From positions 74,220 through 138,219 of the forward strand of contig JAHWHZ010000001.1 in NCBI GenBank assembly GCA_019322895.1: DNA of 64,000 bases, in the 5' to 3' direction. This DNA comes from Candidatus Woesearchaeota archaeon (GTDB lineage: Archaea > Nanobdellota > Nanobdellia > Woesearchaeales > ARS49). Every line of letters starts with the position of its first letter. The first letter of the stretch is position 1. Under the pieces are notes generated by a model. It was given only the letters and a program-made list of their open reading frames with translations. It did no database searches and was not told the origin of the DNA. Below are positions 5,432 to 50,634 of this stretch, piece by piece. The position numbers were made by a program, and so were the translations under genes.

Positions 5432-6361
5432 TTAACCGCGTTTTTTCTTGGTTTTCTTGATTTCCTTGTCTAGCTTCAGCTTGTCCAGCAGTTCCTTGTA
5501 CCTGTTTCTTATCGTGACTTCTGTTACGCCTGCAACATCTGCTACTTCTCTCTGTGTTCTTTTCTCGCCGTGTATCAATGCTGAGACATACAATGATGCT
5601 GCTGCTATTCCTGTAGGCCCTCTTCCCGATGTCAGTTCTGCCTGCTGTGCTTTTTCAAGTATCTCCACTGCTTTGCTTTGCGTCTCTGCAGATAGTTTCA
5701 AGGAGCTTGCAAACCTCGCGATGTAATCTGCTGGATTGCTTGGCAATATTGTTATTCCTAATTCTCTTGTCACAAACCTGTATGTTCTTCCGATTTCTTT
5801 TTTCTCTATGCCTGACGCTTCTGACAATTCATCCAATGTCCTCGGAACCTCATGCCTTCTACATGCTGCATACAAAGCTCCTGAGACAACTGATTCCATG
5901 GATCTTCCTCTTACCAGGCCTCTCTGGACTGCCTGCGTGTAGATCATTGCTGCCTCTTCTTCTACCATCTTTGGCAGTTTTAAGAATGAAGAGACTCTTT
6001 TCAGTTCTGCTAATGCTAATTTTAAGTTTCTTTCAATTGCTGTAGAAATCCTGTATTGCCATTTTCTTAATCTGAAGAACTTGTTCCTGCTTTTGCTTCC
6101 AAGCTGGAACAGGTCTGCTTTTCTTCCAACCTCTGTTCCAAGGCCCTGGTCAAATTGCGTGTAGGTCATTGGCGCGCCAGTTCTTCTTCCTGACTGACTG
6201 CCGCTGTCTGACTCAAATTCGCGCCATTCCTTGCCGAATTCAACCATCTTGTCTTCAATTACCAGCCCACAGTCTTTGCAGATTATCTCTCCCTTTTCGC
6301 GATTCACAAATAGATTTATTCCCCCGCATTCAGGGCAGTTTTTTATATAGTACATTGGCAC
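5432..6361 (-). CDS. tfb: Transcription initiation factor IIB (TFB)
   Basis: N-terminal Zn ribbon CPECGG..CKDCG, B-finger/linker and two cyclin-fold repeats; C-terminal HTH (VADVAGVTEVTIRNRYKEL); 309 aa. Confidence 0.92.
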   Translation of the reverse strand: MPMYYIKNCPECGGINLFVNREKGEIICKDCGLVIEDKMVEFGKEWREFESDSGSQSGRRTGAPMTYTQFDQGLGTEVGRKADLFQLGSKSRNKFFRLRKWQYRISTAIERNLKLALAELKRVSSFLKLPKMVEEEAAMIYTQAVQRGLVRGRSMESVVSGALYAACRRHEVPRTLDELSEASGIEKKEIGRTYRFVTRELGITILPSNPADYIARFASSLKLSAETQSKAVEILEKAQQAELTSGRGPTGIAAASLYVSALIHGEKRTQREVADVAGVTEVTIRNRYKELLDKLKLDKEIKKTKKKRG

Positions 6362-6548
6362 ATCCCCCTAATTAAACAAATATTGTGAGATATTCAAACC
6401 CCCATATTTATGTCTAAAAATATATACCTCACCACAATTAAGTTTAAATAAGAAAGGTAGTGGTTATATATAAATGTTGCGATAATTTCAGAAGATTTTT
6501 AAGCTTTTTGTAACTACTTTTTGCTCTTTTATATAAAATTATAAGTAT

Positions 6549-6851
6549 TTACTGCTTTAAAAGCTTTCTCTTTCGTTCTTCAAGACTGCGTATTTCAGCT
6601 TCTTTTCTGCTTATCAGAGCTTCTTTTTGCTTGATATTCTTAGAAATTTTGGCCTGCAACGCTATTGCTTTAGCTGTAAATTTCTTGCCTTCAGAAATAT
6701 CTTTTTTCTTGCCTCCTTCAACAGCAAATCTGGTTACTTTTCGTTTTCTTTCTTCAAGTTTGATGATATTCTCTCTTATTTTAAGAATCTCAGTTTGAAG
6801 CCCTGCGATTATGCCATTAATCTCTTGCAAGGTAAGTTCTTCTTCAGCCAT
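6549..6851 (-). CDS. Small coiled-coil protein, hypothetical
   Basis: 100 aa, K/E-rich heptad pattern. Confidence 0.3.
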   Translation of the reverse strand: MAEEELTLQEINGIIAGLQTEILKIRENIIKLEERKRKVTRFAVEGGKKKDISEGKKFTAKAIALQAKISKNIKQKEALISRKEAEIRSLEERKRKLLKQ

Positions 6852-6943
6852 ATGCTTTTCAATTGAAAGCAGTTATTTAAAGTTTTCTGTGCACTGGACA
6901 GGTCCGCGCAGGATTTATAAAGTCAAAAAATACCAAAGTATAC

Positions 6944-7561
6944 ATGCAATACAATACACTAACAAAACCCGAAAAAACAGCACTATTAATCGGAATGTTT
7001 GCGGGCGATGGATGTCTACCAATCAAACATAATGGAGAAGGTTATAGAAACTACCAGATTGCATTCTATAATACTAATAAAAAATATGTTACTTTATTTC
7101 ACAATTTATTCTCTCAATTATTTCAAATTGAGGGCAAAATTTTTTGCAGAAAAAGAGCTAATAAAAAGCCATTGTGGCGTTTCGAGAAATATAGTAAAAA
7201 GTTGGCAGTAAAATTTAATCAAGAATTTGAAATTCCTTTTGGAAAAAAAGCTTTGTCTGTATTTGTCCCTTCTTTTATCAAAAATGCAGATTTATCTGCC
7301 AGAAAACATTTCTTGCTTGGTTTATTGATTACAGACGGGGGCATTAGAAAAAATGGAACAATTATTTTTCATGCCGCCAGTAAAAAACTTATCGACGATA
7401 TCGGAAAATTAATGTTTGATATTTGGGAAATTAAGAAGCAAACAAAAAAATATAGGCAGGGAAAATCTCGTTCTTATCAGATAAGTTTAAATATAACTGA
7501 AAGCAGAAAGGTACTTACAGACATGCCACCGTCGCATAACCTGGTATTGCGCGGATCTTAA
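6944..7561 (+). CDS. Double-motif LAGLIDADG homing endonuclease
   Basis: Two LAGLIDADG motifs about 110 aa apart (LLIGMFAGDGCL and LLGLLITDGGI); 205 aa like I-DmoI-type enzymes. Flanked by the inverted repeat CCGCGCA (6906-6912) / TGCGCGG (7548-7554). Confidence 0.8.
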   Translation: MQYNTLTKPEKTALLIGMFAGDGCLPIKHNGEGYRNYQIAFYNTNKKYVTLFHNLFSQLFQIEGKIFCRKRANKKPLWRFEKYSKKLAVKFNQEFEIPFGKKALSVFVPSFIKNADLSARKHFLLGLLITDGGIRKNGTIIFHAASKKLIDDIGKLMFDIWEIKKQTKKYRQGKSRSYQISLNITESRKVLTDMPPSHNLVLRGS

Positions 7562-7663
7562 TCCCTCGGGGGTTAGGAGCGTAAGCCTTGAGTGATTCTT
7601 CACAAAGGATTCAGGTTAGCCCGTTCCCTTCGGGGTATCCCGGTTCAAATCCGGGCGGTGGCG
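7525..7663 (+). tRNA. tRNA-like gene, class II (long variable arm), probably intron-containing; anticodon unresolved
   Basis: Canonical T-arm CCCGG-TTCAAAT-CCGGG (7639-7655), 3' acceptor CGGTGGC plus discriminator G (7656-7663), variable-arm hairpin CCC-TTCG-GGG (7626-7635). A perfectly complementary 5' acceptor GCCACCG lies at 7525-7531, followed by a class-II-like D-arm (GCA-taacctggtat-TGC). About 50 extra nt between the D-arm and variable arm imply intron(s). A tyrosine integrase starts 45 nt downstream. Confidence 0.45.
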
Positions 7664-7707: not shown

Positions 7708-8955
7708 TTGTCTTTTATAGACGGTATGAAAAGAAAAATTGACATTCATGAGTATGATAAAAAATTAAAAGTTGCGATTTCTAATTTGGAAAAATCTAAG
7801 ATTAGTAAAATAAATAAAAGTGAAATTAAGAAGTATGCTGATTTTTTGTTTATGGATAATATTGGCAAGGCGAGAATTCTGAAATATGTTTCTACTTTGA
7901 AAATAGTTGCCAAGGCAATTGATAAGGATTTTAAGAAAATAACAGAAGAGGATTTGAAAAGGTTCTTGATTAAGATTCATAATAATCCTAATTTAAGTGT
8001 TTGGACTAAGGTTGATTATAATGTTTCTGTTAAGAAATTCTATAAGTGGCTTGAAGGGGATATCAAAAATAATGTTTGTCCTAAAAAAGTTAGTTGGATC
8101 AAGACAAGTATTAAGAAAAAAGACAAGCCAAAAGTTAAGAAAAGTGAATTGTTAAGAGAGGAAGATATTCAGTTGCTTTTGAAAAACGCGGATAATCCTA
8201 GAGATAAGGCTTTGATTTCTTTAGTTTGGGATACTGGTGCAAGGATTGGTGAGATTGGCGGAATGACTATTAAGCATGTTAGTTTTGAAGATAATGCTAC
8301 TTATGTTGATTTGGTTGGCAAGACAGGAAGCAGGACTTGTTTGGCTATTGAATCTACTCCTTATTTAGTTCGTTGGCTTGAGGCTCATCCTGACAGGGAA
8401 AATTCCAGTAGTCCTTTATGGTTGGATAGGAGTAATAAGTCTATGACTTATGCTGCTTTGGCTAAGGTTATTCGCAGGGCTTTTGAAAAGTCTAAGTTAA
8501 AGAAAAGGTTTAATCCTCATTTGTTTAGGCATTCTCGTGCTACTTGGTGTGCTGAGAATGGTTGGAGCAGTTATGAGATGTGCAAGCATTTTGGCTGGGA
8601 ATTAGACAGTGGTATGCCTGCGGTTTATATTAGCATGGTTGATAAGGATGTTCATAATAAGATGAAAGAGGCTTATGGATTAGATACAGAAAGAAAGCAG
8701 AAGATTGAAGAGAGGAAATTGCAGAAATGTCCTCGTTGTGAGGTTACTAATCCTAACAAAAGTAAATTCTGTTATAAATGTGGCATGGCTTTGGATACTA
8801 AGACTGCTTTGGATGTTGAGAATAAGAGAAAACTTGCTGATGATTTGATGCTTAAATTGTTAAGACAGCCTGAACTTAAAGAGGTTTTGGTTAAAAGATT
8901 AAAAGAACAGCAGTTGGATAAGCAGGTTAAGAAGATTATTGGTGGTAATGAATGA
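7708..8955 (+). CDS. Tyrosine recombinase / integrase
   Basis: Catalytic R (DTGARIGE), K (GKTGSR), HxxR (HLFRHSRATW), H and Y (AVYISM) signature; C-terminal CxxC..CxxC Zn ribbon. N-terminal region similar to the integrase at 49235-50428. Confidence 0.8.
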   Translation: MSFIDGMKRKIDIHEYDKKLKVAISNLEKSKISKINKSEIKKYADFLFMDNIGKARILKYVSTLKIVAKAIDKDFKKITEEDLKRFLIKIHNNPNLSVWTKVDYNVSVKKFYKWLEGDIKNNVCPKKVSWIKTSIKKKDKPKVKKSELLREEDIQLLLKNADNPRDKALISLVWDTGARIGEIGGMTIKHVSFEDNATYVDLVGKTGSRTCLAIESTPYLVRWLEAHPDRENSSSPLWLDRSNKSMTYAALAKVIRRAFEKSKLKKRFNPHLFRHSRATWCAENGWSSYEMCKHFGWELDSGMPAVYISMVDKDVHNKMKEAYGLDTERKQKIEERKLQKCPRCEVTNPNKSKFCYKCGMALDTKTALDVENKRKLADDLMLKLLRQPELKEVLVKRLKEQQLDKQVKKIIGGNE

Positions 8956-18515: not shown

Positions 18516-19007
18516 TGCATGGAGGGCAAAAATACACTGTGGTTCGTGGGTTTTCCTTGATTAAGCATGGTAATTCTATTGTTTTCCAAGTTTATATATT
18601 CTAGCGACTTTTCGTGGACACAAAGTTTTTTCATAATTTTTCTTATTGTTTTCCTGATTTAAATATTATTGCGGACTTTTGTAGGACTTTTTTCATTATA
18701 CTGTTTTTCAACAATATTAAACTAAGTCTAAAACTTATCCGATTTCGGACAAAAATATCCATTTTCAGACAAAAAATTAGAAGATGATTAAGTATATAAA
18801 TTCCCTACTCAGTTTTTTTCCGGTAAAAGTGAATAGGGGGTTTATAAAGAGCGCACATCAGCCACTGGACAAATGACCGAAAAATATAAATACGACCTTA
18901 TTAATCTAACATCATGTGTATTAATGATGACTGATTTAATATAATAATAACATTTTTATATCAGTTCTGTTTTATTGCACAAATCTAGGTTTGGAGGGAG
19001 ATGAAAA

Positions 19008-50507: not shown

Positions 50508-50634
50508 CGCCCCAGCTGGGAGTCGAACCCAGGTCGGAGCCTTTCTGCGCAGGGCTTTACGCCCGGCTGTTTGATCAAACTTTTTTAAAGTTTGCTCGAC
50601 AGGGCTCCATGATAGACCACTACACTACTGGGGC
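50508..50634 (-). tRNA. tRNA-Asp (anticodon GUC) with a ~53-nt intron at the canonical 37/38 position
   Basis: Reverse complement: acceptor GCCCCAG/CTGGGGC plus G, D-arm GTGTAGTGGTCTATCA typical of tRNA-Asp, anticodon stem GAGCC/GGCTC with loop CTGTCG-(intron)-A, T-arm CTGGG-TTCGACT-CCCAG. The intron contains the hairpin AAACTTT/AAAGTTT. Confidence 0.85.

What the first reader, a model, noticed from the sequence alone, without database searches (positions are those of the whole stretch)
6903..7663. LAGLIDADG homing endonuclease ORF flanked by an inverted repeat and overlapping an unusual intron-containing or split tRNA-like gene
An intact double-motif LAGLIDADG endonuclease is bracketed by CCGCGCA (6906-6912) and TGCGCGG (7548-7554), reminiscent of the helix of an archaeal bulge-helix-bulge splice site. 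Its last 37 nt overlap a tRNA-like gene. That gene's 5' acceptor GCCACCG (7525) pairs perfectly with CGGTGGC (7656), but it carries about 50 extra nt and I could not fold it into a single canonical anticodon arm. Possible explanations are a multi-intron tRNA, a tRNA whose intron or leader hosts the homing endonuclease, or a split tRNA. There is no rRNA here, which is the usual home of archaeal LAGLIDADG genes.
Basis: partly seen in the sequence, partly recalled or inferred. Interest (0 to 1): 0.6.

Follow-up and report, generated by a model that had tools for sequence, protein, structure and literature searches.

The report
Homing endonuclease gene abutting two-intron tRNA-Ser
A selfish DNA-cutting enzyme gene sits directly in front of a serine tRNA gene that has two introns, and runs into it, in a tiny archaeon. 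The same pairing recurs in many related archaea, which suggests a mobile element that targets this tRNA gene and supplies its promoter.

Summary

**The tRNA.** 7525-7663 is a tRNA-Ser(UGA) gene with two bulge-helix-bulge (BHB) introns.
- Intron 1 is 30 nt at position 29/30, with a relaxed motif.
- Intron 2 is 25 nt at 37/38, with a canonical motif.
- Together they account for the ~55 extra nt.
- Splicing in silico gives a canonical 84-nt tRNA.
- Twelve related loci share the architecture, with compensatory changes in the split anticodon stem.

**The endonuclease.** The LAGLIDADG ORF (6944-7561) is not in an intron, a spliced leader or a split tRNA.
- It is a free-standing homing-endonuclease cassette (6888-7522) on the tRNA's 5' flank.
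- A metagenomic allele with 92-93% identical flanks has 42 nt in place of exactly this segment.

**The inverted repeat.** It exists, but its left arm is at 6904-6910, not 6906-6912.
- It has no BHB geometry and lies in the endonuclease promoter.
- It is absent from 28 other loci.

**The family.**
- More than 60 homologues exist.
- In 18 of 19 genomes the ORF abuts or reads into tRNA-Ser(UGA); where it reads in, it carries the tRNA's TATA box.
- Only 12 of 66 tRNA-Ser(UGA) loci carry the gene.
- Nine loci without it keep its 3' end as the tRNA promoter.
- Some loci keep an old promoter plus 15-21 nt of a former tRNA copy upstream.

I found no prior description.

The parts
6888..7522 (+). Homing-endonuclease cassette: the segment present in the window and replaced by 42 nt in the allele L044, which lacks the endonuclease
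   Evidence: Global alignment of the window with L044. Flanks are 92-93% identical up to 6887 and again from 7523.
6892..6900 (+). CACTGGACA, a host promoter-associated motif upstream of the endonuclease TATA box
   Evidence: The same 9-mer lies roughly 13-20 nt upstream of TATA-like boxes of unrelated genes in the window (18863; 45717 minus strand) and in related contigs.
6900..6911 (+).
   Evidence: (repeat I6). It lies in the promoter spacer and is conserved only in L004.
6914..6921 (+). TTTATAAA, the putative TATA box of the endonuclease gene. It starts 30 nt upstream of the ATG, which implies a leaderless mRNA.
   Evidence: Read from the sequence. Spacing is judged against the general archaeal promoter architecture; this is an inference.
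6944..7561 (+). Double-motif LAGLIDADG homing endonuclease ORF (205 aa). Its stop codon TAA (7559-7561) lies inside tRNA intron 1.
   Evidence: AlphaFold model: pLDDT 89.9, pTM 0.87. Foldseek matches to I-DmoI, PI-PfuI and the Tli VMA intein endonuclease domain with TM about 0.7. 61 homologues.
7486..7493 (+). TTTAAATA, the putative TATA box of the tRNA gene, at -39 to -32 from tRNA position 1. It is embedded in the endonuclease codons for ...SLNI...
   Evidence: Sequence. The same box sits at the same distance in the endonuclease-bearing loci listed. It is kept as the tRNA promoter in 9 loci that have lost the endonuclease.
7525..7554 (+). tRNA-Ser(UGA) exon 1: tRNA positions 1-29 (acceptor 5' strand, D arm, 26, 27-29)
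7555..7584 (+). Intron 1, 30 nt, at non-canonical position 29/30, with a relaxed HBh' motif. Central helix H is 7549-7552 / 7579-7582. Bulges are GG|A (7553-7555) and AA|G (7583-7585). The intron-internal helix h' is 10 bp (7556-7565 / 7569-7578).
   Evidence: The same intron occurs in 12 other loci, with h' of 3-10 bp of unrelated sequence and a compensatory C-G to A-T change in H in L018.
7585..7592 (+). Exon 2: tRNA positions 30-37 (GCCTTGAG); anticodon TGA at 7589-7591
7593..7617 (+). Intron 2, 25 nt, at canonical position 37/38, with a full hBHBh' motif. H is 7587-7590 / 7612-7615. Bulges are AG|T (7591-7593) and TT|A (7616-7618). h' is 7594-7600 / 7605-7611.
   Evidence: The geometry rule was checked on the window's own tRNA-Asp intron.
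7618..7663 (+). Exon 3: tRNA positions 38-73 (anticodon stem 3' strand GCCCG, long variable arm with a C(UUCG)G hairpin, T arm, acceptor 3' strand, discriminator G). CCA is not encoded.
7547..7558 (+). It spans the end of exon 1 and the first 4 nt of intron 1.
7708..8955 (+). Tyrosine recombinase (phage-integrase family, C-terminal zinc ribbon) 45 nt downstream of the tRNA. It is a neighbour, not part of the endonuclease cassette.
   Evidence: Pfam Phage_integrase E=1.6e-22. It is also present, at 92% identity, next to the allele L044 that lacks the endonuclease.

Best explanation
Two separate things are juxtaposed.

**1. The tRNA.** 7525-7663 is a functional tRNA-Ser(UGA) gene interrupted by two BHB introns, one at 29/30 and one at 37/38. 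The archaeal splicing endonuclease removes them, leaving an 84-nt class II tRNA.

**2. The endonuclease cassette.** 6888-7522 is a free-standing LAGLIDADG homing-endonuclease cassette that has taken over the 5' flank of that tRNA gene.
- It brings its own promoter.
- Its ORF has no stop codon of its own and reads through the tRNA's TATA box, leader and exon 1 until a TAA in intron 1.
- The tRNA is therefore transcribed from a promoter embedded in the last ~25 codons of the endonuclease gene.

**Inferred mechanism.**
- The enzyme makes a double-strand break in tRNA-Ser genes that lack the cassette.
- The break is most likely in the D-arm region (tRNA positions ~15-25), to judge from where leftover tRNA 5' fragments end.
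- Repair from a cassette-bearing copy uses the tRNA as the right-hand homology arm.
- Repair copies in the cassette together with a replacement promoter and tRNA 5' end.
- Over time the endonuclease decays and is deleted. Its 3' end persists because it is now the tRNA promoter.

**Shown:** the tRNA and intron structure; the cassette boundaries; the family-wide linkage to tRNA-Ser(UGA); presence/absence polymorphism; both kinds of remnant.

**Inferred:** endonuclease activity; the cut site; the direction of the events; the promoter assignments.
For: **tRNA**
- ARAGORN calls the in-silico spliced 84-mer a canonical tRNA-Ser(tga).
- A strict BHB scanner recovers the introns (30,60) and (68,93) as the best-scoring solution.
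- Twelve other loci share the two-intron layout.
  - The split anticodon stem stays paired through compensatory changes: CGGGC/GCCCG, CCGGC/GCCGG, ATGGC/GCCAT, CAGGC/GCCTG.
  - In L018 an exon-intron pair of helix H changes from C-G to A-T.
- L044 differs from the window by a T-A to C-G change in the intron 1 hairpin.
- Position 29/30 is a documented non-canonical intron site (PMC4090602).

**The protein is an endonuclease**
- Pfam match and invariant catalytic aspartates.
- A confident AlphaFold model with an I-DmoI-like fold.

**The cassette is free-standing and mobile**
- L044 has 42 nt in place of 6888-7522, with flanks 92-93% identical.
- 18 of 19 genome loci put the ORF directly upstream of tRNA-Ser(UGA), and in most of them it reads into the tRNA.
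- Genomic contexts differ between lineages. In L014 and L017 the endonuclease+tRNA unit is inverted between the same flanking genes.
- In a metagenome scan for the tRNA itself, 12 of 66 UGA loci with enough upstream DNA carry the gene. None of 23 loci for other Ser isoacceptors carries this family.
- Degenerate copies exist: L004 is frameshifted and L019 truncated.
- Nine loci without the gene keep 48 nt upstream of the tRNA that are 75-92% identical to endonuclease 3' ends. Controls reach at most 48%.
- L018, L160 and L129 keep an old TATA box plus tRNA nt 1-17, 1-21 and 1-16/19 upstream of the cassette.

**The C-terminal tail is a passenger**
- Three different reading frames across the tRNA are used in the family.
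- The last residues of the model have pLDDT below 50.
Against: - No activity, cut site or transcript data exist.
- The functional tRNA next to the cassette still contains the whole D arm. If that is the target, self-cleavage is unexplained.
- Five cassette-bearing tRNAs are intronless (L009, L012, L015, L073, L014), so introns are not the immunity device either.
- tRNA 5' remnants are seen in only 3 cassette-bearing lineages, and L018 and L160 may descend from one event.
- Remnant end points spread over positions 15-25 rather than marking one site.
- The window itself shows no significant 5' remnant.
- The 42 nt of L044 are not significantly similar to the endonuclease 3' end (46% ungapped; L100, with nearly the same promoter).
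- Promoters are assigned by sequence only.
- Strong conservation of the protein and its fixed position would also fit a domesticated function.
Confidence: 0.7

Rival explanations
1. The endonuclease ORF lies inside an archaeal BHB intron, or a spliced leader, of the tRNA. The helix CCGCGCA/TGCGCGG closes that intron, as in archaeal rRNA introns that carry LAGLIDADG genes.
For: - A 12-bp G+C-rich helix can form between 6900-6911 and 7547-7558.
- It is rare in shuffles, 6 of 500.
- It recurs in L004.
- Its right arm ends close to a real splice site (7554/7555).
Against: - Neither reading of the helix, as outer helix or as intron-internal helix, gives a 4-bp helix with two 3-nt bulges (hand check).
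- Excision there would remove tRNA exon 1, yet the complete tRNA is encoded downstream of 7525.
- The helix is absent from 28 other endonuclease-bearing loci.
- The left arm is promoter spacer.
- There is no upstream exon: the window shows no significant tRNA 5' copy.
Confidence: 0.03
2. The LAGLIDADG protein is domesticated rather than selfish. It would be a DNA- or RNA-binding factor, in the way WhiA or intron maturases derive from LAGLIDADG enzymes. It would serve tRNA-Ser(UGA) expression or processing and be co-inherited with the tRNA.
For: - Linkage to one tRNA gene is very stable across orders at 36-74% identity.
- Sequence is strongly conserved.
- The promoter carries a host regulatory motif.
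- The tRNA promoter is nested in the ORF, so the two are transcriptionally entangled.
Against: - Most tRNA-Ser(UGA) loci lack it: 54 of 66. These include a 92-93% identical strain.
- Frameshifted, truncated and deleted copies occur.
- Both catalytic aspartates are invariant, whereas maturases and WhiA-type proteins usually lose them (general knowledge).
- The tRNA-encoded tail is read in three different frames.
Confidence: 0.12
3. The endonuclease gene is cargo of the integrase-type element that sits at the 3' end of the tRNA. The arrangement would then be an ordinary attachment-site junction of an integrated element or provirus.
For: - A tyrosine recombinase gene starts 45 nt after the tRNA.
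- tRNA genes are classical integration targets (PMC4090602).
Against: - The endonuclease lies on the opposite (5') side of the tRNA.
- L044 and L039 share the tRNA-downstream flank (in L044 including the whole integrase gene) at 92-98% identity but lack the endonuclease.
- The other contexts examined show no integrase-family gene next to the pair: no called gene has a Phage_integrase hit, and the shared neighbour clusters are ribosomal proteins, transporters and a phosphorylase.
- No second copy of the tRNA 3' end occurs in the window.
Confidence: 0.03
4. Collaborative homing. The free-standing endonuclease cuts intron-less tRNA-Ser alleles at an intron insertion site. The introns protect the carrier allele and are co-converted with the endonuclease gene, so the enzyme spreads tRNA introns. 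This is a variant of the best explanation with a different target site.
For: - tRNAs next to the endonuclease carry introns more often: 22 of 27 against 25 of 42 unique sequences.
- The intron sites lie 30-70 bp from the ORF end, well within typical co-conversion tracts.
- The window allele has two introns.
Against: - The enrichment is not significant (Fisher p=0.068, uncorrected for relatedness).
- Five endonuclease-bearing tRNAs have no intron.
- Homologous introns are common in alleles without the endonuclease.
- tRNA 5' remnants end in the D arm, not at 29/30 or 37/38.
Confidence: 0.12

Closest known systems
Free-standing homing endonuclease genes of T4-like phages and cyanophages (seg and mob genes such as SegB in the T4 tRNA cluster, mobE; F-CphI next to psbA)
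   Same: - The endonuclease gene is not inside an intron or intein but lies beside its presumed target gene.
- It spreads by double-strand-break repair with co-conversion of flanking DNA.
- Its distribution among close relatives is sporadic, with decayed copies.
   Different: - Those enzymes are GIY-YIG or HNH proteins of bacterial viruses. This one is a LAGLIDADG protein in archaeal chromosomes.
- Here the ORF physically overlaps a tRNA gene, carries that gene's promoter, and appears to replace its 5' end.
- No activity has been shown here. The comparison rests on my own knowledge plus PMC2790892 (abstract seen).
Archaeal intron-encoded LAGLIDADG endonucleases in rRNA BHB introns (I-DmoI, I-Tsp061I)
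   Same: - The same monomeric double-motif fold: Foldseek TM 0.7-0.75 to I-DmoI.
- An archaeal host.
- Association with a highly conserved stable-RNA gene that also contains BHB introns.
   Different: - The ORF is outside the introns.
- The introns here are 25-30 nt and non-coding.
- The host gene is a tRNA, not rRNA.
- Sequence identity is only about 15%.
Intein-associated LAGLIDADG domains of Thermococcales (Tli VMA intein, PI-PfuI, PI-PkoII)
   Same: - These are the closest relatives with solved structures, by sequence profile (E=1.7e-9 to 3.5e-4) and by fold.
- They fall in the same Pfam family, LAGLIDADG_3.
   Different: There are no intein splicing domains, and the ORF is not inserted in a protein-coding gene.
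Multi-intron and non-canonical-intron tRNA genes of Thermoproteales, Nanoarchaeota and ARMAN
   Same: - Two BHB introns, one at 37/38 and one at 29/30.
- A relaxed HBh' motif for the non-canonical intron.
- Missed by standard tRNA finders.
- A broad-specificity splicing endonuclease is needed (PMC4090602; PMC3239211 and PMC5829648, abstracts).
   Different: Nothing essential. This is a further member, from Woesearchaeota.
Integrase-mediated integrative elements that insert in tRNA genes and carry a replacement 3' tRNA segment
   Same: - A mobile element lodged in a tRNA gene restores the gene with its own copy of the displaced part.
- It leaves a short duplicate of the tRNA end at its far border.
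   Different: - This is the mirror image: the 5' end and the promoter are replaced, not the 3' end.
- The presumed engine is a homing endonuclease plus host recombination, not a site-specific recombinase.

Membership tests
LAGLIDADG homing endonuclease (monomeric, double motif) | Two LAGLIDADG motifs, each with a conserved acidic residue | tested here: met
   GMFAGDGCL (D22) and LLITDGGI (D131). Both aspartates are invariant in 29 homologues. Pfam LAGLIDADG_3 E=5.7e-13.
LAGLIDADG homing endonuclease (monomeric, double motif) | Alpha-beta-beta-alpha-beta-beta-alpha fold repeated twice | tested here: met
   AlphaFold model pLDDT 89.9, pTM 0.87. Foldseek matches I-DmoI, PI-PfuI, Tli VMA intein and I-Tsp061I with probability 1.00.
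LAGLIDADG homing endonuclease (monomeric, double motif) | Site-specific DNA cleavage of an allele that lacks the gene | not testable with these tools
   Needs protein and substrate DNA.
LAGLIDADG homing endonuclease (monomeric, double motif) | Presence/absence polymorphism at one genomic site, with decayed copies (the homing cycle) | tested here: met
   The empty allele L044 has 92-93% identical flanks. 12 of 66 loci are occupied. 3' remnants occur in 9 loci. L004 is frameshifted and L019 truncated.
Endonuclease-bearing archaeal BHB intron (as in rRNA) | The ORF is enclosed by an intron whose ends form a BHB motif | tested here: not met
   The 6900-6911 / 7547-7558 helix has no BHB geometry in either reading (hand check). 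The ORF lies upstream of tRNA position 1. The repeat is absent from 28 loci.
Archaeal BHB tRNA intron | A 4-bp central helix flanked by two 3-nt bulges on opposite strands, with cleavage after the second bulge base | tested here: met
   Met by both introns. The rule was calibrated on the window's tRNA-Asp intron. The layout is conserved in 12 other loci.
Archaeal BHB tRNA intron | An outer helix h on the exon side (strict hBHBh') | tested here: inconclusive
   Intron 2 meets it: the outer helix is the anticodon stem. Intron 1 does not (T7548 faces C7586), so it is the relaxed HBh' type.
Archaeal BHB tRNA intron | Removal yields a canonical cloverleaf | tested here: met
   The 84-nt product is called tRNA-Ser(tga) with no intron. 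The split anticodon stem covaries across loci.
Archaeal BHB tRNA intron | Splicing observed in RNA | not testable with these tools
   No transcript data are available.
tRNA-Ser (class II) | Long variable arm, Ser anticodon, discriminator G73 | tested here: met
   Variable arm TTCCCTTCGGGGTAT with a C(UUCG)G hairpin; anticodon TGA at 7589-7591; G7663. That G73 is typical of Ser is from my own knowledge.
tRNA (Rfam RF00005) | Reaches the covariance-model gathering score | tested here: not met
   No hit on the unspliced gene even at E<=10. This is expected with 55 nt of introns at two sites. The spliced form could not be submitted to that tool.
Split or permuted tRNA | 5' and 3' parts encoded apart or in reversed order, and joined through complementary leader and trailer | tested here: not met
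   All exons are colinear within 7525-7663.
Collaborative homing (free-standing endonuclease plus intron) | The endonuclease cuts intron-less alleles at the intron insertion site, and the intron confers immunity | tested here: inconclusive
   Intron frequency is 22 of 27 with the endonuclease against 25 of 42 without (p=0.068). Five carriers are intronless. Cleavage is not testable here.

The most novel reading that the evidence does not exclude
A family of archaeal LAGLIDADG elements homes into tRNA-Ser genes by cutting in the D arm. Each carries a portable replacement of the gene's promoter and first ~17-21 nt. This is a 5'-end mirror image of integrase-borne tRNA 3'-end replacement, and it makes the host tRNA depend on the element's 3' end. 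The same double-strand-break traffic at this locus would also move or fix the BHB introns and the nested tRNA insertions seen in sister strains. That would give a concrete mechanism for the unexplained mobility of archaeal tRNA introns.
Probability: 0.3. Interest if true: 0.8.

Novelty: new variant of a known kind. Interest (0 to 1): 0.6.

Why it matters
- Archaeal LAGLIDADG endonucleases are known from rRNA introns and inteins. I found no description of a free-standing family tied to a tRNA gene. A 2014 review of tRNA introns never mentions homing endonucleases and calls the mechanism of intron transposition unknown.
- If the enzyme cuts tRNA-Ser genes, this locus gives a testable system for how disrupted tRNA genes arise and spread in archaea. 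That covers introns, duplicated 5' ends and nested copies.
- The family would also add compact ~200-aa monomeric nucleases with a conserved natural target.
- On the practical side, the tRNA is missed by Rfam and mis-called by ARAGORN. Such genomes may therefore be scored as lacking tRNA-Ser(UGA).

Tried and rejected
**tRNA identity**
- ARAGORN without introns finds nothing. With introns it calls tRNA-Phe(aaa) with one 43-nt intron and a 26-nt variable region. I rejected this: the anticodon is implausible, there are two nucleotides between the D stem and the anticodon stem, and there is no BHB geometry.
- The Rfam tRNA model gives no hit at E<=10.
- I considered tRNA-Leu(UAA) (CTTAATC), tRNA-Gly(CCC) (the variable-arm hairpin read as an anticodon arm) and tRNA-Sec (TCA in TTCACAA; an 8-bp acceptor stem counting the T-G pair). 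All were rejected for missing stems. The Gly reading was also rejected for T37 and a variable region that is too short.

- A degenerate tRNA 5' half in the window upstream of the endonuclease (6884-6916 against 7527-7559): local alignment score 12 against a shuffle 95th percentile of 17, so not significant. The conserved CACTGGAC there is a promoter motif shared with unrelated genes.
- The inverted repeat 6874-6889 / 7478-7493 at the cassette ends: explained as two similar promoters facing apart.

**Remnants, attachment sites and introns**
- L044's 42-nt tRNA promoter as an endonuclease 3' remnant: not supported (46% ungapped for L100, which has nearly the same promoter).
- A second copy of the tRNA 3' end as an attachment site in the window: none within 3 mismatches.
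- The strict BHB scanner solves only 21 of 51 intron-containing relatives. The rest need relaxed motifs; I did not pursue them.
- Intron enrichment next to the endonuclease was p=0.034 before L012 was added and p=0.068 after. I do not rely on it.

**Context look-ups**
- The further look-ups for P0014 and P0019 gave only repeats of the same populations.
Full report
**What is in the sequence**

The window comes from an AT-rich DPANN archaeon. The endonuclease protein is identical to KY346_00480 of a Candidatus Woesearchaeota MAG, and an archaeal TFB gene lies just upstream.

ORF 6944-7561 encodes a 205-aa protein with two LAGLIDADG motifs. Its last 37 nt overlap a 139-nt stretch whose ends, GCCACCG and CGGTGGC, pair perfectly and which has a perfect T arm.

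With flanking pairs it becomes 6900-6911 / 7547-7558.

**The tRNA**

Default ARAGORN and Rfam miss the gene. ARAGORN with introns gives an implausible tRNA-Phe(aaa).

I first calibrated the BHB rule on the window's own tRNA-Asp(GUC) intron at 50508-50634. The rule is a 4-bp helix H, two 3-nt bulges, and cleavage after the second bulge base.

Applying it, I parsed 7525-7663 as five segments:

| Segment | Coordinates | Notes |
|---|---|---|
| Exon 1 | 7525-7554 | tRNA positions 1-29 |
| Intron 1 | 7555-7584 | 30 nt, position 29/30 |
| Exon 2 | 7585-7592 | GCCTTGAG, anticodon TGA |
| Intron 2 | 7593-7617 | 25 nt, position 37/38 |
| Exon 3 | 7618-7663 | positions 38-73 |

- Intron 2 has a full hBHBh' motif.
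- Intron 1 has H (GCGC/GCGT), both bulges (GG|A, AA|G) and a 10-bp inner helix, but no outer helix. It is therefore the relaxed HBh' type.
- The spliced 84-mer is called a canonical tRNA-Ser(tga) with a long variable arm and discriminator G.
- An independent strict BHB scan selects this pair of introns as the best-scoring solution.

Twelve other loci have the same layout.
- The anticodon stem exists only after both introns are removed. It stays paired through CGGGC/GCCCG, CCGGC/GCCGG, ATGGC/GCCAT, CTGGC/GCCGG and CAGGC/GCCTG.
- In L018 the exon base 27 and its intron partner in H change together (C-G to A-T).
- The inner helix of intron 1 is 3-10 bp of unrelated sequence.

Position 29/30 is a documented non-canonical intron site (PMC4090602). 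This part of the finding is a new member of a known kind.

**The endonuclease is not in an intron**

A metagenomic contig, L044, matches the window on both sides.
- It is 92-93% identical over 5906-6887 and again from 7523 onwards, including the integrase gene.
- In place of 6888-7522 it has 42 nt that contain an ordinary TATA box (AACTTTTAAAAAG).

So 6888-7522 is an insertion/deletion unit consisting of the endonuclease promoter plus the ORF body.

It sits between CACTGGACA, a motif also found upstream of TATA boxes of unrelated genes, and the endonuclease TATA box at 6914-6921. Apart from the window itself, the repeat recurs only in the closest genome relative, L004. It is absent from 28 other loci that carry the endonuclease. 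I regard it as incidental.

**A family-wide association**

The protein has 61 database homologues at 40-100% identity. Their C-termini (MPxWHNLVLR, AEVAQSGTAQ or ..ATMVLR) are translations of a tRNA 5' half in three different frames. This shows that the ORFs routinely run into a tRNA.

Of 19 loci found in species-representative genomes (Woese-, Pace- and Nanoarchaeota MAGs), 18 have tRNA-Ser(UGA) immediately downstream.
- In three distant members (L014, L016, L017) the ORF stops 34-47 nt before the tRNA, and a separate TATA box lies in between.
- In the rest the spacer is gone, and the conserved codons ..YQLxLNK.. (TTAAATAAR) form the tRNA's TATA box at -39 to -32.

The tRNA has zero to three introns, depending on the locus.

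Neighbouring genes differ between lineages: the L1-L10-L12 ribosomal protein operon, TFB, RtcB-OapBC, or glycosyltransferases. In L014 and L017 the endonuclease+tRNA pair is inverted between the same flanking genes. The pair therefore behaves as a unit.

**Sporadic presence and remnants**

I scanned metagenome contigs with a pattern for the tRNA-Ser variable and T arms. This gave 118 loci.
- Among tRNA-Ser(UGA) loci with at least 750 nt upstream, 12 carry a full endonuclease gene and 54 do not.
- None of 23 loci for the GGA, CGA or GCU isoacceptors carries this family.
- L110 has a 29%-identical LAGLIDADG ORF 55 nt upstream of tRNA-Ser(GCU).

Nine loci without the gene have 48 nt upstream of the tRNA that are 75-92% identical to endonuclease 3' ends. 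Controls reach at most 48%. Some retain 30-50 codons of the ORF. The endonuclease is thus repeatedly lost, while its 3' end is kept as the tRNA promoter.

Conversely, three loci that carry the endonuclease retain an old tRNA promoter followed by a tRNA 5' fragment upstream of the cassette.
- L018 retains tRNA nt 1-17, with a different acceptor sequence from the functional tRNA.
- L160 retains nt 1-21, a perfect copy, 126 nt before the ORF.
- L129, a Pacearchaeota-type locus, retains nt 1-16/19.

Similar fragments occur in L020/L021, L045 and L103/L104, which lack the gene. All end between tRNA positions 15 and 25.

**Mechanism proposed**

The protein has both catalytic aspartates and models confidently (pLDDT 89.9). 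It superposes on I-DmoI and on intein endonuclease domains.

I infer the following sequence of events.
- The enzyme cuts tRNA-Ser genes that lack the cassette, in or near the D arm.
- Repair from a carrier copy uses the tRNA body as the right-hand homology arm.
- On the left, repair uses either homologous upstream DNA, giving clean replacement as in the window against L044, or end joining or the short duplicated tRNA segment, leaving the 5' remnant as in L018, L160 and L129.
- The cassette thereby replaces the native promoter and the first nucleotides of the tRNA.

The tail encoded by the tRNA is a passenger: it is read in three frames, and its last residues have low model confidence.

Several things remain unexplained.
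- How the carrier allele avoids being cut is unknown. Its D arm is intact, and five carriers have no intron.
- The alternative in which introns confer immunity (collaborative homing) is not excluded, but the intron enrichment is not significant (p=0.068).
- A domesticated function is a further rival.

**Comparison with what is known, and novelty**

The enzyme is a member of the LAGLIDADG family (motifs and fold tested; activity untested). It fails the test for an intron-borne endonuclease.

It works most like the free-standing endonuclease genes of T4-like phages, but it belongs to a different enzyme family and a different domain of life. It also has two unusual traits: overlap with a tRNA gene, and capture of that gene's promoter.

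Literature searches found no description of this association. I rate it a new variant of a known kind, with moderate to high interest. The tRNA itself is ordinary for DPANN and Crenarchaeota.

Noticed in passing
L044 1031-1327 (oriented copy; contig JGI10211J34971_10006616); also L023, L039, L022, L031/L070: These loci appear to hold one tRNA gene nested inside another.
- In sister strains of the window organism, a window-like tRNA-Ser with its own promoter and introns is interrupted between the variable arm and the T stem by ~155-160 nt.
- The insertion contains a complete second tRNA-Ser with a different acceptor stem and the same anticodon type.
- It is bracketed by the inverted repeat CAAAAAAATCCGT / ACGGATTTTTTTG and followed by a hairpin.
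- The outer gene still shows a compensatory change in its intron 1 hairpin, so it may be functional.
- I could not fit a BHB motif to the insertion.
- The window gene lacks it.
   Followed up: partly
L046 6655-6830 (oriented copy): A tRNA-Ser(CGA) 5' part, running from the acceptor to the variable arm, is followed by a complete tRNA-Ser(UGA) with the same acceptor GCCAGCG. No separate T arm for the first part is visible. The two may share a 3' half.
   Followed up: no
window 6892-6900, 18863-18871 (+), 45717, 15180 and 22700 (minus-strand hits); L044 654, L048 11975, L096 12767, L113, L035, L110: The motif CACTGGACA recurs roughly 13-20 nt upstream of TATA-like boxes of unrelated genes in these Woesearchaeota. 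Two different LAGLIDADG genes are among them. It is probably the binding site of a transcription factor that defines a regulon.
   Followed up: partly
L110 895-1503 and 1560-1668 (oriented copy): A distantly related (29% identity) double-motif LAGLIDADG ORF ends 55 nt upstream of a tRNA-Ser(GCU) gene that has an intron at 29/30. The habit of sitting 5' of tRNA-Ser genes may therefore extend beyond this family.
   Followed up: partly
window 50508-50634 (-): tRNA-Asp(GUC) with a 54-nt canonical BHB intron. The intron contains a GGGC-GTAA-AGCCC hairpin that resembles the AGC-GTAA-GCC element at the 3' end of tRNA-Ser intron 1.
   Followed up: partly
window 7708-8955 (+): A 415-aa tyrosine recombinase with an N-terminal SAM-like domain and a C-terminal zinc ribbon starts 45 nt after the tRNA. 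Its gene is conserved at 92% in L044, and the tRNA-downstream flank up to the start of the gene is 98% identical in L039. No second copy of the tRNA 3' end was found in the window, so the extent of any integrated element is unknown.
   Followed up: partly
window 6874-6889 and 7478-7493: A 16-nt inverted repeat (88% complementary) lies almost exactly at the two ends of the endonuclease cassette. It consists of the promoter of the divergent upstream gene and the tRNA promoter, which share CAG.TAA.TTTAAATA in opposite orientations.
   Followed up: partly
L001, L018/L138, L160, L023, L022, L126: Additional introns of 20-65 nt inside the T loop of tRNA-Ser genes, giving three-intron tRNAs.
   Followed up: no
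L020/L021 (oriented) about 165-225; L045 668-735 and about 930-950: tRNA-Ser loci without the endonuclease gene that carry short duplicated ends.
- In L020/L021 and L045 the only TATA box lies upstream of a 15-16-nt tRNA 5' fragment. The complete tRNA follows 38-50 nt later without a promoter of its own.
- L045 also has a duplicated 3' end plus trailer about 95 nt downstream.
   Followed up: partly
L004, L018, L019 (labelled Methanosarcinales), L008 (Paceibacterota), L017 (Dojkabacteria): Several public MAGs that carry this archaeal DPANN endonuclease+tRNA locus are labelled as unrelated taxa, including bacterial CPR phyla. The contigs are probably mis-binned.
   Followed up: no
L019 1385-1556: The endonuclease ORF is truncated after about 130 codons. 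It is followed by a run of different short perfect hairpins (GGAAATCAGAGATTTCC, CAGAAAGCAGAGCTTTCTG, CAAAATCTTAAGATTTTG) up to the end of the contig.
   Followed up: no
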